NCBI GenBank assembly: GCA_963674745.2
Contig: CAXXDV010000001.1
Location: 224,001 to 288,000 of the forward strand
Reading direction: 5' to 3'
Length of the DNA: 64,000 nt
Source of the DNA: Desulfosudaceae bacterium
GTDB taxonomy: Bacteria; Desulfobacterota; Desulfobacteria; Desulfobacterales; Desulfosudaceae
This document shows positions 170 through 16,544 of this stretch, one piece after another; positions within the stretch are counted from its first letter, which is position 1, and every line of letters starts with the position of its first letter. The notes under the pieces were generated by a model. The model saw only the letters and a list, made by a program, of their open reading frames with translations. It was not told the origin of the DNA and ran no database searches. Made by a program: the position numbers and the translations under genes.

Positions 170-290
170 GGTTTTAAAGAATCAGGGTTTTAAGGTTTTA
201 AGGTTTTAAAGTTTTAGGGTTTTAGGGTTTTAGGGTACAGGTGGCGGTTAAGTGGTTAAGTGGTTAGGTGTTAGGTGGTTAAGGGTTTAA
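170..290. repeat. Octamer arrays: TTTTARGG-type followed by GTGGTTAA-type
   Basis: ttttaagg/ttttaggg units, then gtggttaa/gtggttag units overlapping the stop of the 271-1473 gene. Confidence 0.85.
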
Positions 291-1473: not shown

Positions 1474-1645
1474 ATTGTCAATTGCTTTTACAATTTACAT
1501 AGGCTGATTTGCGAAGGTTTAGTTTTTAAGTGATTAAGTGATTATGTGGTTATGTGGTTAGGTGGTTAGGTGATTATGTGAATCGGATTAGTGGTTTCTA
1601 TCATTTTTAATCGCTTTTCATGTTCAGTCGGAATCTGCGCCGGTC

Positions 1646-2140
1646 GATCTGGATTCCGGGTCACGTTCCGCTTCGCTACACTGCCCGGAATGACGAAGAA
1701 AGAGCGTTCCGTTGCTCCACTGGCCGGAATGACGAAGAAAGAGCGTTCCGGGGCTCCACTGGCCGGAATGACGGGGTATCGAAAATTTAGCATTAACAAT
1801 GTGCAGTCATAATTGGTTGTACGGCGGATCTGGATTCCGGGTCACGTTCCGCTTCGCTACACTGCCCGGAATGACGAAGAAAGAGCGTTCCGTTGCTCCA
1901 CTGGCCGGAATGACGAAGAAAGAGCGTTCCGGGGCAAGTCCACTGGACCCCGGATCGGAGAGACTGTGTCGCAATTCAAAACAAGCCGGAAAAAGAGTGT
2001 TTTCCGGAATGGTTTTACCATTAAAATTCAAAGAAAGTTCGTTATACGACAAATTAGGAAGTCGCTTTTTTTGAATAAACAATTGTGACACAGTCTCCGG
2101 AGTCCGGGGTGACGAAGTTAAAATGCCCGGGGTGACAAAG
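1646..2140. repeat. REP-like palindromic cluster (CCGGAATGACG / CCGGGGTGACG family), including a ~108-bp direct duplication (1646-1753 = 1827-1934)
   Basis: Repeated ctggattccggg...cccggaatgacg and ctggccggaatgacg units; a related intact copy lies at 4459-4488. Confidence 0.8.
1960..2097. mobile_element. 138-bp MITE with 17-bp TIRs and a 4-bp CGGA target duplication
   Basis: Left end GAGACTGTGTCGCAATT, right end AATTGTGACACAGTCTC (16/17 inverted match); CGGA at 1956-1959 and 2098-2101. Confidence 0.85.
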
Positions 2141-2160
2141 TAAATGCATCCGGGACGAGG

Positions 2161-3255
2161 TCAACTTGCTTCTTTGATAGCGTCGGCAACCTGTTGCTGA
2201 TCTTCTTCCGTTAAATAGGGTGACATGGGCAGGCTCAGGCATTGGGCGGATATCTGCTCGGTTACGGGAAAATCACCGGGTTTGTGGCCCAGATCGGCAA
2301 AGGCGCCCTGGAGATGCAGGGGCGCTGTGTAGTATGCCACCGAAGGGATATCTTTTGACTTCAGTAATGCGGACAGGGCATCGCGGTTTTCAGAAAGAAG
2401 GGTGTACTGGGCATAGACCGATGTGTTGCCCGGGGCGATCACCGGAGGCTGTATGCCGGGTATATCGGCCAGCAACTCGTTGTAGCGCTGGCCAACTTGC
2501 GCGCGAAGATCGCATTCTTCAGGGAACAGGGAAAACTTTTCCAGCAGGATGGCGGCCTGGATGGTGTCAAAGCGGCCGTTGATACCCACCAGGGGGTGCT
2601 GGTGTTTGACTTTCTGGCCGTGGTTGCGAATCTGGCGCAGTTTCTCGGCTATTTTATCGTCCGGGGTAAAGACAGCCCCGCCGTCGCCGTAACAGCCCAG
2701 GGGTTTAGACGGAAAGAACGAGGTGCATCCGATCAGGGACTGGTTGCAGGATTTGACGCCCTTGTGGCTGGCGCCAAAGCTCTGGGCCGCGTCTTCGATC
2801 ACCGGGATATTGTGTTTGTCGGCAATGGCGTTGATCCGGGTCATATCCGCGCACTGGCCGTAAATACCCACCGGCATAATGGCTTTGGTTTGAGGGGTGA
2901 TGGCGGCTTCGAGCAGGTCCGGGTTCATGTTGAAGGTATCGGGTTCGACGTCAACAAACACGGGTTTGGCGCCCAGCAGGGCGATAACCTCGGCGGTTGA
3001 TATCCAGGTATAGGAAACGGTAATCACCTCGTCTCCGGGGCCGACGTCCAGGGCCATCAGGGCCATGAGCAGGGCATCGGTGCCGCTGGCGCAGGTGATA
3101 CAGTGGTTGACGTTGACGTAGGATGCCAGTTGAGATTCAATTTCTGTTATTTCCGGGCCCATGATGTACTGGCCGTGGTCAAGGACTTTATTGATACGGG
3201 TTTCAATGCGGTCGCGGATGCGGGCTTGTTGTGATTTTAAGTCGATGAAGTCCAT
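2161..3255 (-). CDS. DegT/DnrJ/EryC1/StrS PLP-dependent sugar aminotransferase (WbpE-like)
   Basis: MDFIDLKSQ start, SGTDAL, IEDAAQSFGA, SFFPSKPLGCYGDGG (PLP lysine), CLSLPMSPYL. Confidence 0.92.
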   Translation of the reverse strand: MDFIDLKSQQARIRDRIETRINKVLDHGQYIMGPEITEIESQLASYVNVNHCITCASGTDALLMALMALDVGPGDEVITVSYTWISTAEVIALLGAKPVFVDVEPDTFNMNPDLLEAAITPQTKAIMPVGIYGQCADMTRINAIADKHNIPVIEDAAQSFGASHKGVKSCNQSLIGCTSFFPSKPLGCYGDGGAVFTPDDKIAEKLRQIRNHGQKVKHQHPLVGINGRFDTIQAAILLEKFSLFPEECDLRAQVGQRYNELLADIPGIQPPVIAPGNTSVYAQYTLLSENRDALSALLKSKDIPSVAYYTAPLHLQGAFADLGHKPGDFPVTEQISAQCLSLPMSPYLTEEDQQQVADAIKEAS

Positions 3256-3263
3256 GGGAATCC

Positions 3264-3418
3264 TGTGGTTAAGTGGTTATGTGATTATGTGATTATGTGG
3301 TTAAGTGATTAAGTGGTTAAGTGGTTAAGTGGTTAAGTGGTTAAGTGTTTAAGTGATTATGTGATTAAGTGTTTAAGTGTTTAAGTGGTTATGTGGTTAT
3401 GTGATTATGTGGTTAAGA
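3264..3418. repeat. Tandem degenerate octamer array GTG(G/A/T)TTA(A/T), about 19 units
   Basis: Direct reading: gtggttaa, gtggttat, gtgattat, gtgtttaa units. Confidence 0.95.
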
Positions 3419-3535
3419 TTGACCGTGGGTGTTGTTCTTGTGCACGGTATAGGTTCGGGGTTCAGGGTTCGAGGATCGGAACTTTAAATTTTCATGTAAT
3501 TTTCAAGTGGCAACTTGTTTTTTTGGGGTCTGCTT

Positions 3536-3853
3536 TTAAGATATATCTTCGCCGTGTTTTATGATTTCATCAACGAGTATACCACCGCCATTAAAGGTTC
3601 GAGGATCAAATGGTATCGGTTCTATGCTGTTATTAATTGTTCTGCGAAGTGGAACGATTTTTCGTCTATCTTGAAAGCGGTCACCACTAAAAACGTTGGA
3701 TACCAAAGCGACATCCACGTCACTTTCTTCGCTGCCGGTTCCTCTGGCCCAGGAGCCGAAAAGCATCGCCCGTTGGATAGGGAACCCATTTTCTTTTAAC
3801 ACGGCGATATATCTTTTAAGGTCTTTTATAATAGCTTCTTTTGAAGTAGCCAT
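3536..3853 (-). CDS. Minimal nucleotidyltransferase (MNT), antitoxin-like
   Basis: LFGSWARG...SDVDVALV motif; overlaps the upstream HEPN gene. Confidence 0.88.
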   Translation of the reverse strand: MATSKEAIIKDLKRYIAVLKENGFPIQRAMLFGSWARGTGSEESDVDVALVSNVFSGDRFQDRRKIVPLRRTINNSIEPIPFDPRTFNGGGILVDEIIKHGEDIS

Positions 3854-4218
3854 TGCCTTACCTCCTCAATCTGGTTTAAATAATTGAGGCTAAATTCTCT
3901 AGTACATTTTTTATAAAAAGAAAATTTTTCGTCTGGATACCTTGCCTCAAGATTAAAATCCGTTACTATCTCCAACAGCTCTAGCTGTTCTTCAGACAGT
4001 TCAATTTCGGCCTTCTCTGCCAAAAAAACCAGACGATGGGTCATCGGCGGTGTCTCCTCTTTTATCATTACGAACGCCGCCTTCAAAAGCTTTTCCAAAG
4101 TCAGATGCCCGAAAAACAGTGCATAGGCATAGTCCCCTTTTTCAAAAAGATGGCCTGCGGCCCGCCAATCATTTTCAGCGGAAACAATCCAATAATTAAT
4201 TTTATCTTTTTTAGTCAT
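3826..4218 (-). CDS. HEPN domain protein
   Basis: A-x-x-D-W-x-x-A, LEKLLKA, THRL and ARYP motifs; paired with MNT. Confidence 0.88.
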   Translation of the reverse strand: MTKKDKINYWIVSAENDWRAAGHLFEKGDYAYALFFGHLTLEKLLKAAFVMIKEETPPMTHRLVFLAEKAEIELSEEQLELLEIVTDFNLEARYPDEKFSFYKKCTREFSLNYLNQIEEVRQWLLQKKLL

Positions 4219-4512
4219 AAAAGGCTATTAACGGTTTTTGACAAATGTAAAATTGAATTTTAGTTTCGTCAAGTCTAAGCGTCCTTCTTTCAGGTCCGTT
4301 CAAATTTTGTTTCAGGATTTTAGGACCTGCTTTGCAGGGGTTTTAGGTTTTATGTGATTATGTGGTTAGGTGGTTAAGTGATTATGTGGTTATGTGATTA
4401 AGAAGGAACCGTTAATGGTTCCAATAAAGTGCAGTCGTGTTTTCAGGTCCAGCAAATCTGGACCCCGGATCGGCGTCCGGGGTGACGAGGAAGGTGTCCG
4501 ATTTAGGCTCAT

Positions 4513-5187
4513 TCAGGGTTTTAAAGAATTTGATCGCCCGAGTAAAATATCCTTACCAATTGTTTTGATTGTTTCATCCAGCTGCCGGTAATCCACCGGC
4601 GTAATCCACTTGACAGCCCGCATCAAGTCGGCGGGGAATTCGTTGAACAACTTTGATACAGCGATCGGTTCCACCCATAAATCCTTTTCGCGGGCCTCTT
4701 GAATTATTTCTTCCCAATCAAATGCATACGTTTGTGCTATAAATGCGATATCGGCAAAATCTTTTGCTTCCCGGCGACTCAGGGCGCAAACTTTGTTGGA
4801 TAATATATTGCGCCAGCCATCAACCCGGATGAAGATATCACTTTTCTTAAGCCCGCCGAAATGGGCTTCAACATCATTGACAAAGTCAATCTTCAGGCGT
4901 AAATCGTCTTTTTGTAAAAATATCCGGATAAAATCATCAGCCCTTGCGCCGACATCAAAACCAAATCCACTTGCTTTAAGGATTGACAGTATTTGATTCA
5001 CCTGGGTTTGAAAGTCTTTGGCCCTGTTGACAAAAAAATCCATACCATCTGAATATCGATGTTCAAGGTAGACGCGGCTTAAGGCGGTTCCGCCCGTTAA
5101 GTAAAAACCGGTTTGGGTGGCGCCGACCAAACTCAGGATCCTATCCTGGAGCGGATAGAGCTTATTGGCATAAAACGGATCGGACAT
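4513..5187 (-). CDS. AbiEii/AbiGii-type nucleotidyltransferase toxin-family protein
   Basis: FYLTGGTAL...HRYSDGMDFF, KIDFV, NKVCAL..R...KDFAD. Confidence 0.82.
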   Translation of the reverse strand: MSDPFYANKLYPLQDRILSLVGATQTGFYLTGGTALSRVYLEHRYSDGMDFFVNRAKDFQTQVNQILSILKASGFGFDVGARADDFIRIFLQKDDLRLKIDFVNDVEAHFGGLKKSDIFIRVDGWRNILSNKVCALSRREAKDFADIAFIAQTYAFDWEEIIQEAREKDLWVEPIAVSKLFNEFPADLMRAVKWITPVDYRQLDETIKTIGKDILLGRSNSLKP

Positions 5188-5461
5188 ACTGATATTTTTT
5201 CTGTAATGTTTTAGGAAAAACCCGCTGGATGACGTTGTCCGAAAGCAGAAACCTTAGTTTCTCAGGAGGCATAATGCTTAAAATCGTATACCAGTCCAGC
5301 GTCGTGAGCATTCGTTGATACAGATTTACTTCGTCATCAGAGGATTTTTCGTGTTCGGGCTTCATATGAAGAATGTCATACGCAGTCTCGGCGGAGATCT
5401 GTGAATCCCAATACAGATTTGACAATATTTCTATCTGCTGTTTTTTGGTCAGTTTTTTCAT
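5162..5461 (-). CDS. Small hypothetical protein, putative partner of the AbiEii-type toxin
   Basis: 99 aa with an LYWD motif; overlaps the start of the toxin gene. Confidence 0.65.
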   Translation of the reverse strand: MKKLTKKQQIEILSNLYWDSQISAETAYDILHMKPEHEKSSDDEVNLYQRMLTTLDWYTILSIMPPEKLRFLLSDNVIQRVFPKTLQKKYQYVRSVLCQ

Positions 5462-5533
5462 TAAAAAAGTTTTAAACCTGCTTCGCAGGGGTTTTATGTG
5501 ATTATGTGGTTAGGTGATTAGGTGATTATGTGG

Positions 5534-5746
5534 TTAAGTGGTAATAAAGAAATCTTCTTTGTTTAAACCGGACTGTCTTACTATGGAAGAAAACGTTCCC
5601 CGTGGTATCTCTTTTTTGGGATCAGGAACAATAACTGTGCGATTGCCCTTTTTAAACTTTTTGTGACTGCCTTTCTGAGAGATAAGGACAAATCCATTTT
5701 TCTGCAACACCTGTATAATATCCCGGGAAGATAACAGGTTAGACAT
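5534..5746 (-). CDS. hicA: HicA-family toxin
   Basis: LQKNGF..ISQKGSHKKF...VIVP...IPRGTFSSIVRQSGL. ATG at 5746 overlaps the hicB stop. Confidence 0.88.
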   Translation of the reverse strand: MSNLLSSRDIIQVLQKNGFVLISQKGSHKKFKKGNRTVIVPDPKKEIPRGTFSSIVRQSGLNKEDFFITT

Positions 5747-5951
5747 GGATAACATCTTCCCCCAGCAATGTTTCTCCAATCACCTGATAGGTCCCGGCAT
5801 CGCTCTCGTCCTCAAAATATAACTCAACCGCTTCTTTCAAGGCCGCAATTGCCTCGTCAATTGTTTCTCCAAAACTGGAGACATCTACATTCAAACACTG
5901 CGAGACATAATACTTTCCCTCTTTGTATACAACATACTTAATGTTTTTCAT
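5739..5951 (-). CDS. hicB: Short HicB-family antitoxin lacking a DNA-binding domain
   Basis: YVVYKEGKYYVSQC...VSSFGETIDEAIAALKEAVELYFE. Confidence 0.85.
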   Translation of the reverse strand: MKNIKYVVYKEGKYYVSQCLNVDVSSFGETIDEAIAALKEAVELYFEDESDAGTYQVIGETLLGEDVIHV

Positions 5952-6029
5952 TGTCGCTTTCTCCCGGTATAAAAGATTATTCCCTGTTTTGACGATAAAA
6001 ACATATTGACTTTTTTATTGTTTCAAATG

Positions 6030-6095
6030 GTTTGGGATCTTTCAAATAGCGGCTATCATGTCTCTGATTCTCAAGTCCCATTTTCTAAGCGGCAA
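6030..6095 (-). pseudogene. N-terminal stub of a HepT/DUF86-type toxin
   Basis: TTG at 6095 overlapping the MNT stop reads MPLRKWDLRIRDMIAAI*KI, resembling DUF86 N-termini; premature TGA at 6042-6044. Confidence 0.6.
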
Positions 6096-6381
6096 GGACA
6101 GCCTCCTTCAGAATAGCATCTCTGAGTTCTTTATGGAGGAAATCACGGGTTGCCAAATCCACCCGGCAATGTAAAAGCTGCGTCAGCTCTCTTTGCAGTC
6201 TTGCAAATTGGAATAACGTCACCCGGGCGTCAGGCTCAAATTCTACCAGAATATCCACATCACTGTTTTCCCGTTCTTCCCCGCGGACGACCGAACCAAA
6301 CAGGTAAAAATGTTTAACCGCAAACCGCTGCTTAATATCCTGTCTGTTGATCAGTATTTTCGAAACCTGTTCTCGTTTCAT
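6085..6381 (-). CDS. Minimal nucleotidyltransferase (MntA-like)
   Basis: LFGSVVRGE...SDVDILVEF...VDLAT...L...ILKEA. Confidence 0.88.
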   Translation of the reverse strand: MKREQVSKILINRQDIKQRFAVKHFYLFGSVVRGEERENSDVDILVEFEPDARVTLFQFARLQRELTQLLHCRVDLATRDFLHKELRDAILKEAVLAA

Positions 6382-6634
6382 TCGCGCTTTTCCTGATTTG
6401 TTTACACCGGCCAGAAAATTATATTATACCTATATTTCCTTTATTTAACAAACAATTGGCGGATGCGATGAAGATTCAATTTTTGGGTTTTTAGGACCTG
6501 CTTCGCAGGAGTATCAGGTGTTTAAGTGATTATGTGTTTAAGTGGTTAAGTGGGCCGGGGTATTCGAAAAATTTTTCTTTAAAGACATAAACACTTAATC
6601 ACTTCTGCTTACAGCCTATGCTTTGGCAAACCGG

Positions 6635-8224
6635 TTACTTTGTTTCTAAGAGGCCATTATCACCCTGCTGATATTTTTTGCCGCAGGTCAGGCAGTCCAG
6701 GTTGTCGGTCAGGCGTTCGCCGCAGGCGCAGGCCCAGCCGATGCGTTGGGCCGGGTTGCCGACCATCAGGGCATGATCGGGTACGGTTTTGTTGATCACG
6801 GCCCCGGCGCCGACGAAGGCATAACTGCCGATGGTCACCCCGCAGACAATGGTGGCGTTGGCGCCGATGGTGGCGCCTTTCTTGACCAGGGTCGGGCGGA
6901 CCTGGTCCATTTTGCGGATTTCGGCCCGGGGGTTGTAAATATTGGTAAATACCATGGACGGGCCGCAGAACACCCCGTCTTCCAGGGTGACCCCTTTGTA
7001 AATCGAGACATTGTTCTGGATTTTGCACTGTTTGCCGATGGTCACATCCGGCCCGATGACCACATTCTGGCCGATATTGCAGTTGTCGCCGATGGTGGTA
7101 TCGGGCAGGACATGGGAGAAGTGCCAGATTTTTACGCCCCGACCGATGGAGACATGGTCATCAATGGCGGCGGTTTGGTGCGCGAAAAAGCCCCGGGCAG
7201 GGGCGTCGGCTGCGGCCCGGGTGTCATCGGTGGCCAAGGTGATACCACGCCCGTTTTCATCCATGGAGCGCTGTGCGGCTTTAAGTATTTGGAGTACGCG
7301 CAGGCCTTCAGACCCGTCTGTAACCGGTTGGCGGTTGTCGGCAATGCAGGTCAAAAAATGCCGGCATTCTTCTTTCAGGGGTTCGGCCTGCTCAATAATC
7401 GGTCGTTCCGGTTCACCTTTGACCGGCACGGGCATATTGTGCTCCCACCGGATCTGATGGGGGTACAACAACAGCTTATCTTCCCAGGGCAGGGTATCAT
7501 CAAACACGGCCATTTTTTGGTCTCCGACCACGACCAGTTTCTGCTCCTTGAAAGGATGCAGCCAGGACACGAAGATATGAGCGCGCAGGCCCGTGGGGAA
7601 GGCCATGTGAGTGGTGGTGACATCCGCGATTTTCTGGTGCAGGTAAAAGCCGCCGGTGGCGGAAACGGATTCCGGCATACTGCCGGCCAGGGTCAGGATC
7701 ATGGAAATGTCGTGGGGCGCAAAAGACCAGAGAATGTTTTCTTCCCTACGGATCTTGCCCAGGTTGAGACGCTGGGAGTAGATATAGTTGATTCGTCCCA
7801 GCTCACCTTTTTCCGCCAGTTCTTTTAACCGCACGAATACCGGGTGGAACTGAAGCAGGTGGCCGACCATGAGCACCCGCTTTTTTTCGGCCGCCAGGTC
7901 GATCAGTGCCTGGCCTTCTTTTTCGTCCAGCACGAGGGGTTTTTCCACATAGACGTGTTTGCCGGCCAGAAGCGCTTCTCTGGCCATGAGGTAGTGGGTC
8001 TCCGCAGGGGTGGCGATCACCACACCTTTGACCGCTTCGTTTGCCAGCACTTCGTTTAAGGCCAGGCAGGTTTCAACTTCCGGGTATTGTTTTTGAAAAT
8101 CGACCAGTACGTTTTCGTTGTGATCACAGATCAGGCGCAAGGCGCCAAGTTCGTTATAGTTGCGGACGAGGTTTTTGCCCCAGTAGCCGGAGCCTATTAC
8201 CGCAATTTTTTGGTTGTTGTTCAT
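6635..8224 (-). CDS. Fused Gfo/Idh/MocA oxidoreductase (WbpB-like) and hexapeptide N-acetyltransferase (WbpD-like)
   Basis: N-terminal GSGYWG, EKPL, VGH, APHD; C-terminal [39 protein letters not shown]. Confidence 0.9.
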
Positions 8225-8276
8225 AAAAGACCTTTAAGAATTATGTGGGTTTGCGAACTGTCTTAGCATTAAAGGC

Positions 8277-8432
8277 GGTGTGGTTATGTGTTTAAGTGGT
8301 TATGTGGTTATGTGGTTAAGTGGTTATGTGATTAAGTGGTTATGTGATTAAGTGGTTATGTGGTTAAGTGGTTAGGTGGTTAGGTGGTTAGGTGGTTATG
8401 TGGTTATGTGGTTATGTGTTTAAGTGGTTAGG
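8277..8432. repeat. Tandem degenerate octamer array GTG(G/A/T)TTA(A/T/G), about 19 units
   Basis: Direct reading; lies just downstream of the four-helix-bundle gene. Confidence 0.95.
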
Positions 8433-8443
8433 GATCATGGACG

Positions 8444-8830
8444 TCACTTCTTTTTTGGGGTCTGCTGTGCTGATAGACGATTCTTAAGTGTGTTGGCGAT
8501 GGCCTGAAGGGTGGCAGAAATATGTTTCAATTCTGAGACCATTTCAGTAACGACCTTTTGATCCAGTAAGCCGATTTCGCCGGCGATGTAGAGCTGCGTT
8601 CTGAGTTCGGCGGCTGAGCCTTTGGCGATATGAATAAAACGTATGTATTCAAGCTTGGAGTTTCTTTCTGCGCCTTCGGCGATATTGCTTGGGATTGAAA
8701 CGGCGGAGCGGGTTAACTGGCTTTTTAGCCCATAGTCCCGGCAATTCTTAAGCTCTTTGTAGATTTTCACTGCCAGGCGGCAGGATTGTTTCCAGACCGC
8801 CAGGTTCTCGAATGATTTATACAATGGCAA
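8444..8830 (-). CDS. Four-helix-bundle protein (23S rRNA IVP-like / Avd-like family)
   Basis: FENLAVWKQS, QLTRSAVSIPSNIAEGAER, IAKGSAAELRTQL. Confidence 0.92.
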   Translation of the reverse strand: MPLYKSFENLAVWKQSCRLAVKIYKELKNCRDYGLKSQLTRSAVSIPSNIAEGAERNSKLEYIRFIHIAKGSAAELRTQLYIAGEIGLLDQKVVTEMVSELKHISATLQAIANTLKNRLSAQQTPKKK

Positions 8831-9103
8831 ACCTCCATGTTTACCTTTTAGGGTTTTAGGGTTTTAAGCGACCCACCCGGGAATGGTCCGTTACCAAACA
8901 TATAAGTAACAATAGCCGTTTCGTGGCTTTAAAGGGTGATTATGTGTTTATGTGGTTAAGTGGTTAACATCCCGGTTGGTTCTGTTTCTGGATTCGCTCT
9001 AAAAGAAAATATGGTTTTGTTACTTAGAAGCGTCCCAACCGGGGCTGGCCCGGAGCCAAACCTATAAGTAACAATAACTTACAGTTTTGTTACCTATAAG
9101 GGT

Positions 9104-10261
9104 TCAGGGGTCAGGGGTCGGGTTCAAAAACCGGTCGTAGGCGTCAGGCGTAATAATGGCCGTTTGTGCTTTTGGGTACCCCTTTAGAAACGTTTTCGGG
9201 AACCCTGTTTTCTTTTTTTTAGGGTTCCACTTGAATTCATATGCATAGAGATCCGGCCCCTGTTCTTCAATATAATCAATTTCCTGTTGCTGCGTCGTGC
9301 GCCAGAAAAAAGCAGACGCGTGAATACCCCTGTTGTCTGTCATTTTGCGTCTTTCCGACACCAGGTAATTTTCCCACAAAGCGCCTGTATCCGTGCGGCC
9401 GGACAAACCGATAAAATTACCGATGACGGCATTGCGGATGCCGTTATCAAAAAAATATATTTTTTTACTTTTTTTAATTTCATTTCTTATGTTGCGGCTA
9501 TAAGCCGGAAGCGTGAAAAGGACAAATGCTTTTTCAAGCAAATCCACATAACGGGCCACTGTCTGGCTGTCGGCCCCGGTAAGTTGACCGATCTCGTTAA
9601 AAGAGACTTCGCTGCCAAGCTGGAGGGCAAGTGCTTTGACAATCTTTCCAAGAAGGGATGGTTTCTTGATGCCCTCGAGCATCAGTAAATCTTTGAACAG
9701 GTAGCTGTCCGCCAGGAGCCTGATGACTTCCTCCTCACGGCCGGGTGATGTGATAATCTCCGGATAGCTGCCATAGACAAGCCGATGTTCCAGGCATCGC
9801 CGCTCTTCGAGCAGGCCCTGATGGGCCGCCATTTCACCAAAGGAGACCGGAAGCAGGATAAATTCAAATTTCCGGCCTGTAAGCGGTTCGGCAATACTGG
9901 AATTAAGCTCAAAAGCCGAAGAACCGGTCGCGATTGCCTGCACTTCAGGGATCTCATCGGTTATCAGCTTCAAGGTAAGGCCGATATTGGTGATCCGCTG
10001 GGCTTCGTCAATGCAGACAATGCGGTTATCCCCGATAATTGTGCGCAGCCGGGTAGACGTCGCTTCACTCAGCAGGTCACGAACGTCCGGCTCATCAGCA
10101 TTCAGCAGCAGGTAGTCTTGCTTTGATTCCGCTAAAAGGGCCTTTATCAGCGTGGTTTTTCCTGACTGCCTGGGGCCGAGAAGGATGATCGCCTTACCCT
10201 GAAAAAGGCGTGAACTGATGCGATGCATCACTTCCCTGAATATGAAATTCTTTGATTTCAT
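9104..10261 (-). CDS. AAA_14 ATPase with DUF4143 / PD-(D/E)xK-like C-terminus
   Basis: GPRQSGKT, IDEAQ, ATGSS, LTGRK, YGSYP, KIYFFDNGIRN, EIDYIEE...YEFKW. Confidence 0.9.
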   Translation of the reverse strand: MKSKNFIFREVMHRISSRLFQGKAIILLGPRQSGKTTLIKALLAESKQDYLLLNADEPDVRDLLSEATSTRLRTIIGDNRIVCIDEAQRITNIGLTLKLITDEIPEVQAIATGSSAFELNSSIAEPLTGRKFEFILLPVSFGEMAAHQGLLEERRCLEHRLVYGSYPEIITSPGREEEVIRLLADSYLFKDLLMLEGIKKPSLLGKIVKALALQLGSEVSFNEIGQLTGADSQTVARYVDLLEKAFVLFTLPAYSRNIRNEIKKSKKIYFFDNGIRNAVIGNFIGLSGRTDTGALWENYLVSERRKMTDNRGIHASAFFWRTTQQQEIDYIEEQGPDLYAYEFKWNPKKKKTGFPKTFLKGYPKAQTAIITPDAYDRFLNPTPDP

Positions 10262-10488
10262 TCCGAAATAAATATAATATTTTTCGATTTAAATCAAGGA
10301 AAAATTTAAAATTGGCAGTTACGGGTTGCAGGTTTAGGCTTTAGATAGAGAAAAGCCTGGGTCCTTTAAGTGGAAGTGTTTAAGTGGTTATGTGTTTAAG
10401 TGGTTATGTGTTTAAGTGTTTAAGTGATTAGGTGGCCGGGGTTTTAGAGACGTTTTTCCATAAACACTTAAACACATAATCACTTCTA

Positions 10489-11710
10489 CTTACAGTCTCT
10501 GCTTTGGCATACCGATCATTATATTTAGATTATCTGCATACCGATAATCACGTAACCACTTAACCACTTCCCCTTATAACAGCTGCTTTAGCAATCCGAT
10601 ATTCAACTTTCTGTTACCTGCCCGCCGCCAACAACATAACCACTTAACCACTTCTTCTTACAGTCTCTGCTTTGGCATACCGATCATTATATTTAGATTA
10701 TCTGCAAATCGATAAGCACCTAACCACTTAACCACTTCCCCTTATAACAGCTGCTTTAGCAATCCGATATTCAACTTTCTGTTACCTGCCCGCCGACAAA
10801 AACATAACCACTTCTTCTTACAGTCTCTGCTTTGGCATACCGATAATCACGTAACCACTTAACCACTTCCCCTTATAACAGCTGCTTTAGCAATCCGATA
10901 TTCAACTTTCTGTTACCTGCCTGCCGCCAACAACATAACCACTTAACCACTTCTTCTTACAGTCTCTGCTTTGGCATACCGATCATTATATTTAGATTAT
11001 CTGCATACCGATAAGCACGTAACCACTTAACCACTTCCCCTTATAACAGCTGCTTTAGCAATCCGATATTCAACTTTCTGTTACCTGCCTGCCGCCAACA
11101 ACATAACCACTTAACCACTTCTTCTTACAGTCTCTGCTTTGGCATACCGATCATTATATTTAGATTATCTGCATACCGATAATCACGTAACCACTTAACC
11201 ACTTCCCCTTATAACAGCTGCTTTAGCAATCCGATATTCAACTTTCTGTTACCTGCCCGCCGACAAAAACATAACCACTTAACCACTTCTTCTTACAGTC
11301 TCTGCTTTGGCATACCGATCATTATATTTAGATTATCTGCATACCGATAATCACGTAACCACTTAACCACTTCCCCTTATAACAGCTGCTTTAGCAATCC
11401 GATATTCAACTTTCTGTTACCTGCCCGCCGACAAAAACATAACCACTTAACCACTTCTTCTTACAGTCTCTGCTTTGGCATACCGATCATTATATTTAGA
11501 TTATCTGCAAATCGATAAGCACCTAACCACTTAACCACTTCCCCTTATAGCAGCTGCTTTAGCAATCCGATATTCAACTTTCTGCTACCTGCCTGCCGAC
11601 AAAAACATAACCACTTAACCACTTCTTCTTACAGTCTCTGCTTTGGCATACCGATGTTTAATTTACTGTTGCTGACCTGCCGCCAACAACATAACCACTT
11701 AATCACTTTT
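10489..11710. repeat. Non-coding tandem array of 168-bp units, each a dimer of two diverged 84-bp monomers; 7 units plus a partial
   Basis: CTTACAG unit starts at 10489, 10657, 10817, 10956, 11124, 11292, 11460, 11628 (periods 168, 160, 139, 168, 168, 168, 168). Stops occur in all six frames of the unit. Confidence 0.95.
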
Positions 11711-11749
11711 GCGCTTGTAATGCTGAATGCCAAGCCCCAAAGCCTGAGT

Positions 11750-13450
11750 TTAACACCCCTCACATCCGCGCTTGATACTATCCTTAATCCGTTTGACGTG
11801 GCCGCGGCCGAGGCCGCGGACTTCGCAGTCCAGTTGAAAATAGCGGCGAATATCATCGTCGGAAAGCAGGTTGAAACAGTCGACCACGGCGATGGGGTTG
11901 CCGGCCATTTTTACGACATCGTCGGGCATCAGTTTCAGATAGAGTTCGTGCCGCACGGCCAGGACAACGGCGTCGACTCCTTTTAAGGCCGTGGCCAGGT
12001 CGGGTTCCATGCGCAGGTCCTGCAACCGTTCCTGGTTGCGGAAAAACCGGGCCAGGCTGGTGTCGGGAGACGGGTAGATATCCTGTTTCTCAAATTCCCA
12101 CCAGTGCTTTACATAGGGGTCATGGGCCCGGACATCGCCGCCCATTTCCACCAGCTTGCGCACCATGACTTCCGAGCCGCTGTAGCGGGTGTCGCCCACG
12201 TCTTCACGATAAGAAGCGCCGAGCACGGCGATTTTGGCGTTGGGCACGATTTTGCCCTGTTCACGCAGGGCGTCACGCACCATGCCGGCGGCACGCAGGG
12301 AGCGGGTGTCATTAATGTCGATGCTGACGGGCGTTATTTTAAAAAGGTCGTCTTCATATCCCATGAGCGTATGGTAGGCCCAGACGCCCAGTCCGCCGTC
12401 CTTGGGCAGGCAGTATCCGCCGATGCCCGGCCCGGGGAACAGCATGTTGTTGTGGGTCGGCCGGACCTTGATGGCTTTGACCACCTTGGTCATGTCAACA
12501 CCGTTGCGTTCACAGAAGACGCTCCATTCATCCATAAAGGCCAGGCTGGTCGCCCGGTAGGCGTTCTCCATGATCTTGCAGGTTTCGCTTTCAACGGGCC
12601 GGTCCAGAACGGTCAACGGAAATTTGTCCACGTTGAGCACCTGGGATAAAAAGGCGGTTACCTTTTCGCGGGCGGTTTCGTTTATACCGCTGCACACCCG
12701 CCAGAAATCACGGATAGACGCCACGTACTCACGACCGGGCATGACCCGTTCATAAGAATGGGCCAGCAACGGCTGTTTGTCACCCAGGCCGCGTTTTTCA
12801 AATTCGCGCTTGATAATGGGGTTGGCCACATATTCGGTGGTTCCCGGCGGAACCGTGGTCTCGATCAGGACCAGGCAGTCCGGGGGGATATGTTCGCCGA
12901 TCACTTTGAGGCTCTGCTCTAAGGCGGATATTTCGGCATAACCGTCACGCACGTTGCCGAAATCATTTTTATGATAATCGCACTGGACATCCACGACCAC
13001 CACATCGGCCAGTTCCAGGGCGGCATAAGAGAACGTGGCGGTCAGGGTTTTCTTCTCCAGAACACAGCGCTTGATCATGGGCGCCACTTCCGGGTCTTCT
13101 GCTTCCACCGGCGCCACGCCCCGGTTCAGGTAAGGGATCTTCCAGTACGAGCGCGGTGAAGGCCGCTGCATACCGATAACGAACTTGGCGGGGTGACCGG
13201 TTTTTTTATCCACGGAATCGGCCACCACCCCGGCCATGACAGCACCGACAAACCCGACACCCATCACGACCACGATTTCGTGGCCCTGGTCGCGGTGTTC
13301 TTTTACCAGGGTCTGAAGGCGCTTGTTCTCCTCGGCATAGTCGTTTTCATCGGGCAGGACAAAGCATTCGCCGTTGGGACAGAAGGAGTCGGTTTCGGAG
13401 GGGGCACGGGTACCCGCATTATCATTGTCCGGTCTTGTGGGAGAGGTCAT
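11750..13450 (-). CDS. UDP-glucose/GDP-mannose-family nucleotide-sugar dehydrogenase (WbpA/WecC-like, long form)
   Basis: GVGFVG, IETTVPPGTT, SYERVMPG, KIMENAYR, PGPGIGGYCLPKD, LGASYREDVGDTRYS. Confidence 0.9.
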   Translation of the reverse strand: MTSPTRPDNDNAGTRAPSETDSFCPNGECFVLPDENDYAEENKRLQTLVKEHRDQGHEIVVVMGVGFVGAVMAGVVADSVDKKTGHPAKFVIGMQRPSPRSYWKIPYLNRGVAPVEAEDPEVAPMIKRCVLEKKTLTATFSYAALELADVVVVDVQCDYHKNDFGNVRDGYAEISALEQSLKVIGEHIPPDCLVLIETTVPPGTTEYVANPIIKREFEKRGLGDKQPLLAHSYERVMPGREYVASIRDFWRVCSGINETAREKVTAFLSQVLNVDKFPLTVLDRPVESETCKIMENAYRATSLAFMDEWSVFCERNGVDMTKVVKAIKVRPTHNNMLFPGPGIGGYCLPKDGGLGVWAYHTLMGYEDDLFKITPVSIDINDTRSLRAAGMVRDALREQGKIVPNAKIAVLGASYREDVGDTRYSGSEVMVRKLVEMGGDVRAHDPYVKHWWEFEKQDIYPSPDTSLARFFRNQERLQDLRMEPDLATALKGVDAVVLAVRHELYLKLMPDDVVKMAGNPIAVVDCFNLLSDDDIRRYFQLDCEVRGLGRGHVKRIKDSIKRGCEGC

Positions 13451-13464
13451 CCTTACTCCTTAAG

Positions 13465-13985
13465 GCTAAGTGGTTAGGTGATTAAGTGCTAGTTGGTAAG
13501 CATATAGCATAAATTTAATAATCGGTTTGCCAAAGCTGGGGTTGTAAGTTGAAGTGATTAAGTGGTTAGGTGATTATGTGGTTATGTGGGCCCGTGTTTT
13601 CGAGCAGGTTGCCCCCTAAAGACCGATGCGATTAATCACCTCTTCCCAGGAACCCTGATTTGCCAACCCGTTGAAAAACATACATTTTCCTTTTTTATCG
13701 ACAAAAGCTTAAACACTTAAGCACATAACCACTTAATCACTTAATCACTTCTGTTTACTACCTCAATCTTGGCAGACCAATGCTTAACTTACTGTTACTG
13801 GCTCGCCGACAAAAACATAACCACTTAAACACATAACCACTTAATCACTTGTCCTTATAGCCTCTGCTATAGCATGCCGGCACTTCACTTCCTGACACCA
13901 GCCTCCCGACAAAGACCTAATCACATAAACACTTAATCACATAATCACTTCTACTTACAGCCTCAATCTTGGCAGACCGACGCAT
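13465..13985. repeat. Composite element: octamer arrays in both orientations plus diverged 84-bp monomers
   Basis: One reverse-strand monomer at ~13480-13560; forward monomers at ~13750-13985. Confidence 0.8.
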
Positions 13986-13990
13986 AGCTC

Positions 13991-15004
13991 TTAATGATAG
14001 TAGGACTTATACCAGTCAACGAATCGTCCGATGCCGTCTTCGATGGTGGTGACGGGTTTAAAGCCAACGGCTTTGTAGAGGTCGTCAATATCCGCGCAGG
14101 TGGCGGGCACATCGCCGGGCTGCATATCCAGAAAATCTTTTTCCGCTGTTTTGCCCAGGTGTTTTTCCAATGCTTCAATAAACCGCATGAGTGTTACCGG
14201 CTGGTTATTGCCGATGTTATATATCCGGTAAGGCGCATAGGATGTGCCGGGATCCGGGTGCCGACCGGACCAGTCGGGATTCGGGTCGGGACTGGTTTTC
14301 ATAACCCGGACAACGCCCTCAATGATGTCGTCGACGTAGGTAAAGTCCCGCTGCATGTTGCCGTGGTTGAAAACCTGTATGGGCTTGTCGGCAAGAATGG
14401 CCTTTGTAAAAAGGAAAATCGCCATGTCCGGTCTTCCCCAGGGGCCGTAAACCGTGAAGAACCGCAGGCCGGTGGCCGGCAGGTTATATAGATGGCTGTA
14501 GGTGTGGGCCATCAGTTCGTTGGATTTCTTGGTGGCCGCGTACAGGGAAACCGGATGATCGACGTTGTCATGAACCGAAAAGGGCATGTTGGTGTTGGCC
14601 CCGTAAACCGAACTTGATGAGGCAAACACCAGGTGCCTGACATTAAAATGACGGCAGCATTCGAGCAGATTGACAAACCCGACCAGGTTGGATTCGACGT
14701 AGGCGTGGGGGTTTTTAAGGGAATACCGGACGCCGGCCTGAGCGGCCAGGTTGATCACGACCTCGATGGTGTGGGATTGAAACAGCGCTTCCAGGTCCGC
14801 TCGATGACTTAAATCAATTTTCTGAAATTCAAAATCATCAAACGATTCGAGTTGCTTTAAACGATCTTCTTTCAGGCTGACATCATAGTAGTCATTGAGA
14901 TTGTCTATGCCCACCACCGAATAGCCGTCGTTTAAAAGCCGGTGGGCCAGGTGGAAGCCGATGAACCCGGCTGCGCCGGTGATTAGGACGGACTTGAAGT
15001 TCAT
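13991..15004 (-). CDS. NAD-dependent epimerase (UDP-glucuronate 4-epimerase-like)
   Basis: [55 protein letters not shown]. Confidence 0.93.
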
Positions 15005-15057
15005 AATTTTAGCTTCGAGAATTTTTTTTGGGATTGGCGGTCAGGGGTTTTAAGGCT

Positions 15058-15520
15058 TTGTGTTTAAGTGTTTATGTGATTAAGTGTTTATGTGATTAGG
15101 TGGTTAAGTGATTAGGTGGTTAAGTGGTTAAGTGGTTAAGTGATTATGTGGTTATGTGGTTATGTGGTTAAGTTATGTGTGTCTGGGTATACGAGGGTGT
15201 TTTCGATAAAGGCATAAATTCATAATGATTTGTCCTTGTAATTTTTTCTACCAAACCCATGTTTTGCTTTCTGATAGCAACCTACCGATAAAAACATAAT
15301 CACGTAAACACTTAAACACATAACCACTTCTACTTACAGTTGCGACTTTGGCAAACCGACAATAGATTTTTCGTCATGGGCTTTCCGTTAAGCACATAAT
15401 CACATAATCACTTCAACTTAAAGCCTCTGCCCTGGCAGACCAATGCTTAACTTACTGTTACTGGCTCGCCGACAAAAACATAACCACTTAATCACTTAAA
15501 CACATAACCACCTAAGCCCT
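15058..15520. repeat. Composite element: GTGDTTAD array, central linker, inverted arrays with 84-bp monomers
   Basis: Same architecture as at 6517-6634, 10366-11710 and 13465-13985. Confidence 0.8.
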
Positions 15521-15769
15521 ATATCCAAAAATTAACTGATGACGACTTTTGGCTTTACGGCAAAATCAGGGCAATCGATCGGCCGGTATAAAGCTCCGCC
15601 CCTAAGGTTACATAGAATCGGATTCCCCCTTCGAACCCCTTGAAATTTAAACCTAATCATATTCTACAATCTGATTATTATACCAGCTAAACCCCTAAAA
15701 TTCAAGAAAATTGTGGTGTCCATGGCTTTATTCTTGACTCAAATCGGCAGGGTGCACATAATAAAAATT

Positions 15770-16460
15770 TAGGTTCAGGATTTCAGGGTTCGGGGTTTGA
15801 GGTTTGAGGGGTTGTTGTTTTTCTAATACCCTAATACTTTAACACCTAAAAACATGTATTCTTGAAGGCTAAACAGACTGTCTAATAACCCAAAACAATC
15901 GTCATTCGGACGAGGGCGACCAGCCGGTCGCCCCTACAAGGCGAGCCGGAATGACGAATTGCGGGACATGCTGTAAAGCCTTCCGCTATACATACCTGTA
16001 GGGGCGGCCCCCTGTGGCCGCCCGACAAATGGGCACCCACATGGGGGTGCCCCTACATGGACGTGATTCACAATCGGGCACGGCACGCCGTGCCCCTACG
16101 GGATATGGGTTTGCGATTTGCCGAAGGGGTTGAGGTTCAGGGTTCAGGGTTTGAAGGTTGAGGGGTTGTTGTTACTCTAATGCTTTAACACCTAAAAACA
16201 GGTATTATTGAAGGCTAAACAGGCTGTCTAATAACCCGAAACAATCGTCATTCGGACGAGGGCGACCAGCCGGTCGCCCCTACAAGGCGAGCCGGAATGA
16301 CGAATTGCGGGACATGCTGTAAAGCCTTCCGCTATACATACCTGTAGGGGCGGCCCCCTGTGGCCGCCCGACAAATGGGCACCCACATGGGGGTGCCCCT
16401 ACATGGACGTGATTTGGAATCGGGCACGGCACGCCGTGCCCCTACGGGAATATGGGTCTG
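15770..16460. repeat. ~350-bp tandem duplication built from GTAG-type REP palindromes and heptamer repeats
   Basis: gtcattcggacgagggcgaccagccggtcgcccctac at 15901 and 16247; gtaggggcggccccctgtggccgccc, gggcacccacatgggggtgcccctac and gggcacggcacgccgtgcccctac in both copies. Confidence 0.88.
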
Positions 16461-16544
16461 CGCTATGCAGAAGGGATTATAAAGTTTGGGGTTTGAGGCC
16501 CGGATTGGTGGCCCCCAAACAATTGACATATTAGAAGGAGAAAG

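What the first reader, a model, noticed from the sequence alone, without database searches (positions are those of the whole stretch)
10489..11710. Satellite-like higher-order repeat: (A84-B84) x7
Seen: the 168-bp unit splits exactly into two colinear 84-bp monomers (A: cttacagtctctgctttggcataccgat...; B: cttataacagctgctttagcaatccgat...) that alternate. Units are nearly identical to each other while A and B are clearly diverged. Unit 2 lacks one octamer (160 bp) and unit 3 lacks 29 bp between two ATACCGAT direct repeats (139 bp), consistent with slippage. All six frames are closed. 84 bp equals 8 helical turns at 10.5 bp per turn, so motifs would be phased on one face of the DNA (inference). 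A 1.2-kb non-coding dimeric satellite inside a bacterial operon is unusual; it may be a protein-loading array, a contingency VNTR or a processed RNA array.
Basis: partly seen in the sequence, partly recalled or inferred. Interest (0 to 1): 0.7.

Follow-up and report, generated by a model that had tools for sequence, protein, structure and literature searches.

The report
Amplified arm of octamer foldback repeat
A real 1.2-kb non-coding tandem array in a sulfate-reducer-type genome is best read as a recent local amplification inside a genus-specific family of intergenic 8-base repeats, and nothing found here shows a function of its own.

Summary
Window 10489-11710 is seven A-B dimers (168, 160, 139 and 168 x4 bp) plus a terminal 83-bp hybrid monomer. 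Full units are 159-168/168 identical, A and B are 60/84 identical, and all six frames are closed.

It is not a stand-alone satellite. Each monomer is two AACCACTT octamers plus a ~68-bp core. The array is the expanded right arm of a foldback element whose left arm is the inverted (AAGTGGTT)-type run at 10374-10429.

- **Octamer family:** 181 runs in this genome, 0 inside ORF calls, with 29 G->C adjacent pairs against 1 C->G.
- **Distribution:** found only in this genus (3/3 genomes against 0/38), and at 7 of 10 syntenic intergenic positions of congeners.
- **The core:** confined to this polysaccharide locus plus one single-monomer paralog. It is absent from congeners and from the public collections scanned.
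- **Function tests:** no Rfam family, no conserved fold and no terminators; only weak promoter-like matches. The 84-bp phasing is not kept.

Best reading (0.6): a recent amplification by unequal recombination or slippage between octamer blocks. Earlier notes of this scan hold nothing on these octamers.

The parts
10364..10435 (+). Left arm: run of G-type octamers (AAGTGGTT / ATGTGTTT / AAGTGATT variants, about 7-9 units)
   Evidence: TRF period 8, 7.6 copies. Inverted-repeat pairs I1-I25 link it to the C-type octamers of the array. Regex run at 10374-10429.
10436..10461 (+). Loop, opening with the family's inner motif (GCCGGGGTTTTAGAG, a variant of TCGGGGTTTGAG)
   Evidence: 52 of 181 octamer runs carry [CG]GGG(G)T within 16 nt on this side, and 0 of 181 on the other side. 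Sequence.
10462..10488 (+). First block of three C-type octamers (AAACACTT AAACACAT AATCACTT), which closes the hairpin with the left arm
   Evidence: 25-27 nt, 93-96% complementary to 10382-10422 (I20 and I21). Fold of 10340-10660 has z -3.84.
10489..11627 (+). Seven A-B dimers (168, 160, 139, 168, 168, 168, 168 bp). Each monomer is a ~68-bp core plus two AACCACTT octamers.
11628..11710 (+). Terminal 83-bp monomer with an A-like head and a B-like tail (65/83 identical to A, 68/83 to B)
11750..13450 (-). UDP-glucose/GDP-mannose dehydrogenase-family gene (566 aa). Its stop codon lies 39 bp from the array.
   Evidence: Pfam PF03720, PF00984, PF03721
9104..10261 (-). AAA_14 / DUF4143 ATPase gene (385 aa), next gene after the element on the same strand
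   Evidence: Pfam PF13635, PF13173
13468..13583 (-). One monomer in inverted orientation, flanked by G-type octamers on both sides (the nhmmer match runs 13495-13586)
   Evidence: BLAST match on the minus strand, 78%. nhmmer hit on the minus strand, E 1.2e-16. Sequence.
13711..13995 (+). Three diverged monomers (100-bp spacing), ending at the epimerase stop codon
   Evidence: nhmmer E 3e-23 to 2.8e-17. Sequence.
15058..15513 (+). A second foldback of the same build: 14 G-type octamers, a loop, then two monomers ending in a C-type octamer run
6516..6660 (+). A third foldback of the same build: 4 G-type octamers, a GGGCCGGGG loop, C-type octamers and one core that runs to the stop codon of the gene at 6635
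   Evidence: nhmmer E 3.4e-12. Sequence.

Best explanation
The array is the amplified inner right arm of an 'octamer-armed foldback' intergenic repeat.

The ancestral element is still present as a single copy at G000:C1:2376474-2376653. It consists of a run of AAGTGGTT-type octamers, a short loop opening with a GGGG-T-rich motif, a ~68-bp core, and a run of the complementary AACCACTT-type octamers.

Inferred history:
1. Because C-type octamers bracket the core on both sides, unequal crossing-over or replication slippage between octamer blocks duplicated 'core + two octamers'.
2. One early duplication diverged into A and B (71% identity).
3. The A-B dimer was then amplified recently (at least 94.6% identity between units).
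4. Small slippage deletions followed (one octamer; 29 bp between 10-bp direct repeats), with exchange of variants among units.

Inferred role: the array is carried passively. If transcribed with the polysaccharide genes, it is the stretch after the dehydrogenase stop codon. There its G-type octamers (in the sense RNA) can pair with the C-type run at 10374-10429, like a REP- or STRR-type stem. The array has no sequence-specific function of its own and is probably unstable in copy number.

Shown: the anatomy, the family, its distribution, and the lack of conservation of the core. Inferred: the amplification route and the absence of a specific function.
For: - **Anatomy:**
- **Single-monomer paralog** with the same order of parts: (L149).
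- **Octamer family:** 181 runs of 3 or more units, 0 inside ORF calls of 100 aa or more. They lie in 136 intergenic gaps of median 346.5 bp, against 84 bp genome-wide.
- **Fixed polarity:** adjacent runs are G->C 29, C->G 1, G-G 13, C-C 12. The inner motif is on one side only, 52/181 against 0/181.
- **Genus-specific:** 3 of 3 genomes of the genus, 0 of 38 other relatives, reversed control 0.
- **Core is local and young:** full-length nhmmer hits occur only in this locus and at C1:2376536. Congeners match only on the octamers. Collection scans gave 2 plus 119 single matches, and 0 of 121 of these loci hold even two octamers. No plasmid or phage match.
- **The arms do recombine:** one monomer is inverted and flanked by G-type octamers on both sides. 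This is the product expected of an inversion between inverted arms.
- **The genome amplifies intergenic repeats elsewhere:** GC-rich palindrome arrays of 86-108 bp period, up to 725 bp.
- **No sign of a specific product:** no Rfam match at gathering score, no fold, 0 terminators, and period not conserved.
- **Possible structural variation:** one contig of run X3 carries a one-octamer loss in a combination of variants absent from the assembly. This is a weak hint only.
Against: - A block CTTTGGCA-N-ACCGA is the best-kept part of ten monomers that otherwise average 71% column identity. That could reflect constraint rather than shared descent.
- The octamer arrays sit at 7 of 10 syntenic intergenic positions in congeners whose flanking proteins are roughly 55-90% identical. 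The family as a whole may therefore be maintained by selection.
- This is the longest non-coding tandem array in the genome. It is strongly strand-asymmetric, with G 10.6% against C 30.2% on the plus strand.
- No expression or binding data could be obtained, so 'no function' is an inference from absence.
- The copy number is not confirmed independently of the assembly.
Confidence: 0.6

Rival explanations
1. Protein-loading array. The octamers, and/or the TTGGCA-N-ACCGA block in each core, are binding sites for a lineage-specific DNA-binding protein. That protein could be nucleoid-associated or a cooperative binder of short tandem sites. The 15 monomers would then nucleate a large complex that insulates the polysaccharide genes from the inserted DUF4143 cassette, or modulates read-through.
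For: - Tandem 8-bp sites with fixed polarity, and positional conservation in congeners.
- The TTGGCA..ACC block is the most conserved part of the core.
- Paired octanucleotide repeats in Geobacter metallireducens were read the same way by their authors, without a test (PMC2700814, passages seen).
Against: - TTGGCA-N-ACCGA occurs 12 times in the genome, 11 of them in this locus and the other one in coding DNA. It is not a regulon motif.
- Spacing between monomers is not kept: 84, 91, 100 bp, with units of 160 and 139 bp.
- The core is absent from congeners.
- No candidate protein was identified.
Confidence: 0.15
2. RNA-level punctuation. The array is transcribed with the operon. Its 15 blocks of G-type octamers offer alternative partners for the single C-type run at 10374-10429. 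This would give long imperfect stems that act as 3'-end stabilisers or double-strand RNase sites and set the relative levels of upstream and downstream messages.
For: - The arm pairing is predicted: z -3.84, with 0 of 100 shuffles as stable.
- 26 of 29 G->C pairs lie downstream of at least one gene; 3 lie between divergent genes, against 31% of all gaps over 200 bp (crude gene calls).
- In a congener one orthologous gap is a bare 49-bp octamer hairpin between convergent genes (L019).
- STRR hairpins in cyanobacteria are discussed in the same terms (PMC2670836, passage seen).
Against: - The order of octamer variants in the two arms is not mirrored beyond chance: 31 identical octamers in register against 30.4 expected. 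There is thus no sign of selection for pairing.
- Orientation of single arms relative to transcription is only weakly biased, 41 G-type against 21 C-type in the sense strand.
- No terminator-like sites.
- One arm would suffice, so 15 need not be functional.
Confidence: 0.15
3. Array of antisense promoters or small-RNA units. Each A monomer would carry a weak sigma-70-like promoter firing on the plus strand, against the operon.
For: TTGGCA-16-TAGATT (9 of 12 positions) recurs in six A monomers. The region has 13 promoter-like sites against 4.1 +/- 2.0 in shuffles.
Against: - The excess is simply the repeat counted six times in two registers.
- The second hexamer is not kept in B, in the last monomer, or in any diverged copy.
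- No terminators, no fold, no Rfam family.
Confidence: 0.04
4. Assembly artefact. The array would be over-expanded, or created by mis-assembly of dispersed copies.
For: No short-read contig spans it. A joint 10426->11616 appears in runs X1 and X2.
Against: - That joint carries 35 letters identical to the loop of the paralog at C1:2376474, so it is the paralog and not a deletion form.
- Unit-specific variants and two different internal deletions are not what a collapsed or inflated repeat looks like.
- Contigs from inside the array have 2-5 times the flank depth where the assembly has 2 or more exact copies, and 1.07 times where it has one.
Confidence: 0.03

Closest known systems
REP / BIME elements of enterobacteria (recalled from the literature, not read here)
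   Same: High-copy and strictly extragenic. Able to form stems, mostly downstream of genes. Locally amplified into tandem clusters in which two unit types alternate.
   Different: REPs are unique ~35-nt palindromes, not microsatellite arms. In BIMEs successive REPs alternate in orientation, whereas here A and B are colinear. The 3 Y1-transposase-family hits in this genome have no octamers within 900 bp.
STRR (short tandemly repeated repetitive) sequences of filamentous cyanobacteria (PMC2670836, one passage seen)
   Same: Short tandem units in intergenic gaps, able to form hairpins. Lineage-specific, with function unknown (transcript stability or translational coupling has been suggested).
   Different: 7-bp units and a different phylum. 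No higher-order 84/168-bp amplification of a non-repeat core is described in the passage seen.
Paired octanucleotide-repeat sites of Geobacter metallireducens (PMC2700814, passages seen)
   Same: Tandem octanucleotide repeats in pairs on opposite strands at variable distance. Dozens of intergenic loci, unique to one lineage. Guessed by the authors to bind a global regulator or IHF/HU.
   Different: Four repeats per site with consensus GTTGCTYN. Here there are 3-18 units of AWGTGRTT. The supplementary alignments were not opened. No tandem amplification is reported in the text seen.
Higher-order repeats of eukaryotic satellite DNA, such as alpha satellite (recalled; PMC8122249 seen only in a search listing)
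   Same: Diverged monomers (71%) nested in near-identical multimers (94.6-100%). This is the signature of unequal exchange at the multimer level.
   Different: One 1.2-kb locus, against megabases. No centromere role. Monomers are built on a dispersed bacterial microsatellite.
Foldback (FB) transposons of Drosophila (recalled)
   Same: Long inverted arms made of short tandem subrepeats of variable number around a variable middle.
   Different: No transposase. No target duplications seen in 14 elements inspected. 7 of 10 syntenic positions are shared with congeners, so there is no sign of recent movement.

Membership tests
REP/BIME-type extragenic palindromes | Many copies, confined to extragenic DNA | tested here: met
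   181 octamer runs, 0 inside ORF calls of 100 aa or more
REP/BIME-type extragenic palindromes | Each unit is a defined imperfect palindrome of about 35 nt | tested here: not met
   The arms are microsatellite runs of 3-18 octamers, 30-900 bp apart. The order of variants in the two arms is not mirrored: 31 observed against 30.4 expected.
REP/BIME-type extragenic palindromes | A cognate Y1 (RAYT) transposase gene flanked by the repeats | tested here: not met
   3 PF01797 matches. 0 of 3 have octamers or the GC-rich palindrome within 900 bp.
STRR of cyanobacteria | Tandem heptanucleotide units in filamentous cyanobacteria | tested here: not met
The period is 8.
Geobacter metallireducens paired octanucleotide sites | Tandem octanucleotides in pairs on opposite strands at variable distance | tested here: met
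   29 G->C pairs with gaps of 32-917 bp
Geobacter metallireducens paired octanucleotide sites | Consensus GTTGCTYN, four repeats per site | tested here: not met
   The consensus here is AWGTGRTT, with 3-18 repeats
CRISPR array | Near-identical direct repeats separated by unique spacers | tested here: not met
   Only two 'spacers' alternate, and A and B are only 60/84 identical overall. cas genes were not searched.
Structured non-coding RNA family | Match to a curated family, or a conserved fold with covariation | tested here: not met
   No Rfam match reaches gathering score. Consensus fold has 0 pairs on the plus strand and -1.27 kcal/mol on the minus strand.
Integron attC sites | Inverse core (RYYYAAC) followed within about 60-140 bp by core (GTTRRRY) | tested here: not met
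   The octamers contain GTTAAGT and ACTTAAC. The attC order (C-type then G-type) occurs in 1 of 55 adjacent pairs, and that one spans a gene.
Contingency (phase-variable) repeat locus | Repeat lies in a reading frame or between promoter elements, so that copy changes switch a gene | tested here: not met
   The array lies 39 bp after the stop at 11750 and ends more than 110 bp before the start at 10261
Contingency (phase-variable) repeat locus | Copy number differs among cells or strains | tested here: inconclusive
   One X3 contig has a one-octamer loss in a variant combination absent from the assembly; only 124 of its 190 bases match a single place. Contigs cannot give copy number.
MITE / foldback transposon | Terminal inverted repeats with target-site duplication, and presence/absence between relatives | tested here: inconclusive
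   Inverted arms are present. No duplication was evident in 14 inspected elements. 7 of 10 syntenic positions are shared with congeners and 3 are not.
Satellite higher-order repeat (as a pattern, not a family) | Multimers much more alike than the monomers within them | tested here: met
   Units 159-168/168 identical, against 60/84 for A and B

The most novel reading that the evidence does not exclude
The octamer-armed foldbacks would be a genus-wide cis-acting system, kept at the same intergenic positions across species and read by a dedicated protein or by a double-strand RNase. The 15-monomer array would be a multivalent version of it: fifteen alternative right arms (or fifteen TTGGCA-N-ACCGA sites) competing for one left arm. 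Recombination or alternative pairing among them would set, stochastically, how much transcription or message survives from the polysaccharide genes into the downstream cassette. That would be a bacterial higher-order repeat with a regulatory role.
Probability: 0.12. Interest if true: 0.65.

Novelty: new variant of a known kind. Interest (0 to 1): 0.36.

Why it matters
If the best reading is right, the array itself is a by-product. It is still a clean bacterial example of how a dispersed microsatellite can seed a satellite-like higher-order repeat by unequal exchange, the route invoked for eukaryotic satellites.

The more useful result is the family behind it. It is a genus-specific 8-bp repeat with fixed polarity and inverted pairing, and it keeps its positions between species. 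It punctuates a polysaccharide locus interleaved with toxin-antitoxin and DUF4143 cassettes.

I found no description of this octamer in the papers searched. The nearest relatives in print remain untested guesses: STRR in cyanobacteria and the Geobacter paired octanucleotides. This organism therefore offers a second or third independent case in which to ask what such repeats do.

Tried and rejected
**Readings considered and rejected**
- Rfam scan of 9800-12200 at E up to 10 gave three sub-threshold matches: mir-279 (25.2 bits against 56), mir-466 (25.2 against 85) and TMV_UPD-PK3 (15.8 against 34). The two miRNA matches lie on the 10385-10498 hairpin, not in the array.
- CRISPR reading: rejected. 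Only two spacers alternate and the repeats are diverged.
- Integron attC reading: rejected on arm order.
- Sigma-54 promoter reading of TTGGCA..TGC, by eye: a TGC follows in only 3 of the 10 aligned copies, and the GG-to-GC spacing is one base short of the consensus as I recall it. Rejected.
- ops/JUMPStart-like GGCGG on the sense strand of B monomers, by eye and from recall: not kept in the diverged copies. Rejected.
- DnaA-box and IHF-consensus likeness of the octamers, from recall: two mismatches each. Not pursued.
- Sigma-70 scan: the hits are one weak site repeated.

**Searches that found nothing useful**
- Search for the dehydrogenase in congeners, to compare the orthologous gap: no ortholog (best match 26% identity), so no synteny test for the array itself.
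- Collection scans with core patterns: 2 genome and 119 metagenome single matches, and none of the 121 loci holds octamers.
- Plasmid and phage BLAST: no match.
- TRF on 14 congener loci: only 7-8-bp arrays and small multiples (16-62 bp), none with a non-octamer core.
- Earlier notes of this scan: nothing on these repeats.

**Sequencing runs**
- No RNA holder was listed.
- Parts of the array have no contig cover in X1-X4, and no contig bridges it.
- The joint 10426->11616 is explained as the paralog. The joints 10484->11516, 10416->10461 and 10434->10712 have 23-25 letters on the short side and were not interpreted.

**Tests with a null result**
- Orientation of runs against replication strand: 34 C against 27 G regions, and 23 against 23. 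No bias.
- Mirror symmetry of the two arms: none.
- Target-site duplications: none seen.

Full report
**1. The observation**

The sequence at 10489-11710 is as described.
- Tandem Repeats Finder reports a 168-bp period with 98% matches (score 1551) over 10835-11655, and an 84-bp period with 71% matches over 10835-11708.
- Cutting at the CTTACAG anchor gives units of 168, 160, 139, 168, 168, 168 and 168 bp, followed by an 83-bp monomer.
- Unit 2 lacks one octamer. Unit 3 lacks 29 bp between two GCATACCGAT repeats.
- Full units are 159-168/168 identical, and A against B is 60/84. The last monomer is 65/83 identical to A and 68/83 to B.
- All six frames are closed: the longest stop-free run is 64 codons.
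- The plus strand has 10.6% G and 30.2% C. GC is about 0.41, against 0.57-0.60 in the flanking genes.
- No short-read contig from four public runs spans the array. Contigs from inside it have 1.1-5.1 times the flank depth, in step with the number of exact copies in the assembly. The array is therefore multi-copy in the reads, but the figure of 15 monomers rests on the assembly.

**2. What the monomer is made of**

Each 84-bp monomer is two AACCACTT octamers plus a ~68-bp core. Left of the array lie three more C-type octamers (10462-10485), a 26-bp loop, and an inverted run of about seven AAGTGGTT-type octamers (10374-10429). The inverted run is 93-96% complementary to the C-type octamers, and the region folds with z -3.84. 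The finding is thus one arm of a foldback.

**3. The octamer family**

- Runs of three or more octamers occur 181 times in the 5.5-Mb genome. None lies inside an ORF call of 100 aa or more. They occupy 136 gaps whose median length is 346.5 bp, against 84 bp for all gaps.
- They are clumped: the two 100-kb bins around this window hold 23 and 19 runs.
- Adjacent runs within 1.2 kb are G-type then C-type 29 times and C-type then G-type once.
- The runs have polarity. A motif like TCGGGGTTTGAG follows the 3' end of the G-orientation run in 52 of 181 cases, and never lies on the other side.
- The middles of the 29 pairs are heterogeneous. They hold other short repeats, GC-rich palindromes, and sometimes a small ORF.
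- By my crude gene calls, 19 pairs lie between co-directional genes, 7 between convergent genes and 3 between divergent genes. Divergent gaps make up 31% of all gaps over 200 bp.
- The variant order in the two arms is not mirrored: 31 identical octamers in register against 30.4 expected.
- Orientation does not follow the replication strand. It is only weakly biased with respect to transcription, 41 against 21.

**4. Distribution**

- A four-octamer pattern matches 358 times in this genome, 43 and 29 times in the two other genomes of the genus, and 0 times in 38 other relatives (10 from the same family, 28 from the order). The reversed control gives 0 everywhere.
- I examined 11 distinct array loci of the congeners. 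Ten are syntenic with this genome, and 7 of those 10 carry octamers at the orthologous gap here. Three do not.
- One congener gap is a bare 49-bp octamer hairpin between convergent genes. This genome has 710 bp there, with 12 octamers on one side and an ORF in the middle. The family is therefore old and stays in place, while arm length and content change.

**5. The core**

- A profile built from the monomers finds full-length copies only in this locus (window 6579-6645, 10459-11689, 13495-13586 on the minus strand, 13716-13995, 15294-15478) and at C1:2376536-2376616. All other hits are octamers only.
- The C1:2376474-2376653 element is a single-monomer version with the same order of parts.
- Congeners match only on the octamers and lack an ortholog of the adjacent dehydrogenase.
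- Core patterns find only chance matches in the genome and metagenome collections: 121 loci, none with octamers. Nothing is found in plasmids or phages.
- Ten diverged monomers share a CTTTGGCA-N-ACCGA block. That motif occurs 12 times in the genome, 11 of them here.
- The monomer at about 13480-13570 is inverted and has G-type octamers on both sides. An inversion between inverted arms would leave exactly this arrangement.

**6. Tests of function**

- Rfam gives nothing at gathering score.
- Single monomers fold no better than shuffles.
- The consensus fold is empty on the plus strand and -1.27 kcal/mol on the minus strand.
- There are no terminator-like sites. The promoter-like excess is one 9-of-12 site in the A monomers, whose second hexamer is not kept in other copies.
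- Spacing is 84 bp here but 100 and 91 bp in the sister arrays, and two units are 160 and 139 bp. Helical phasing is therefore not maintained.

**7. Context**

All neighbouring genes are on the minus strand. Sugar-nucleotide enzymes alternate with cassettes of other kinds.

| Group | Genes (window coordinates) |
|---|---|
| Sugar-nucleotide enzymes | epimerase 13991-15004; dehydrogenase 11750-13450; GFO/hexapeptide protein 6635-8224; DegT aminotransferase 2161-3255 |
| Other cassettes | two DUF4143 ATPases; a 23S-rRNA-IVS protein; HicA with a weak HicB-like partner; a nucleotidyltransferase (NTP_transf_2) alone; HEPN plus nucleotidyltransferase; AbiEii |

- Almost every gap carries an octamer run.
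- 8 of 15 DUF4143 genes lie within 500 bp of a run, against 5.6% of all ORF calls. This is confounded by clumping.
- The genome also holds tandem arrays of GC-rich palindromes with 86-108-bp periods. The focal array is the longest non-coding array.

**8. Reading**

The simplest account is local amplification by unequal exchange or slippage between the octamer blocks that bracket a loop-derived core. Divergence into A and B came first, and the dimer was amplified later. I give this 0.6. The protein-loading and RNA-stem rivals (0.15 each) are not excluded. The positional conservation of the family and the kept TTGGCA..ACCGA block speak for some constraint.

**9. Known relatives**

- The closest in print are the paired octanucleotide repeats of Geobacter metallireducens (PMC2700814, passages only; supplements not opened) and cyanobacterial STRR (PMC2670836, one passage). 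Both are of unknown function.
- REP/BIME, satellite higher-order repeats and foldback transposons are compared from recall.
- Two literature searches for octanucleotide repeats in sulfate reducers and for the octamer letters found no description of this family.

Noticed in passing
window 250-10429: Nearly every gap of this minus-strand polysaccharide cluster carries an AAGTGGTT-type run in the same orientation (2 to 18 octamers, for example 3271-3414 and 8286-8429). Sugar genes alternate with toxin-antitoxin-like and DUF4143 cassettes: HicA with a weak HicB-like ORF at 5534-5951, a nucleotidyltransferase at 6085-6381, HEPN plus nucleotidyltransferase at 3536-4218, and AbiEii at 4513-5187.
   Followed up: partly
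G000 genome-wide; window 15880-16100: A second repeat family of GC-rich palindromes (GTAGGGGC...GCCCCTAC; the 8-mer or its complement occurs 740 times). It often sits inside the octamer foldbacks and is amplified into tandem arrays of 86-108-bp period, for example C3:1208794-1209518 (107 bp x 6.8).
   Followed up: partly
G000:C1:1492048-1492927: An AT-rich 219-bp tandem repeat, 4.0 copies, 100% identical, outside ORF calls. It is unrelated to the octamers and unexplained.
   Followed up: no
G000 genome-wide: 8 of 15 DUF4143 (AAA_14) ATPase genes lie within 500 bp of an octamer run, against 5.6% of all ORF calls. Most of them are in the same repeat-rich islands, so the association may only reflect clumping.
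   Followed up: partly
L019:1465-1513 against G000:C3:2268927-2269636; L013 against G000:C3:2590213-2590947: At orthologous gaps the congener has a minimal octamer hairpin (49 bp), or a short middle. This genome has long arms and a small ORF (116 or 144 aa, no family assigned) inside the foldback. The middle of these elements may therefore accept insertions.
   Followed up: partly
window 11750-13450 (minus strand): The UDP-glucose/GDP-mannose dehydrogenase-family protein is 566 aa. The NAD-binding match starts only at residue 60 and is stretched (residues 60-263 for 187 profile positions), which suggests an N-terminal extension and an insertion.
   Followed up: no
window 15005-16544: About 1.5 kb without an ORF of 100 aa or more lies between the epimerase gene and a divergent GGDEF gene. 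It is filled with a foldback, two monomers, GGTTT-type short repeats and GC-rich palindromes.
   Followed up: no
outer flanks of octamer runs, e.g. G000:C3:260082-260517: Outside the octamer arms there is often a further inverted layer of GGTTTTAAAG-type short repeats, facing CTTTAAAACC on the other side. The gaps are thus nested palindromes of several short-repeat classes, all GT-rich on the 5' arm.
   Followed up: no
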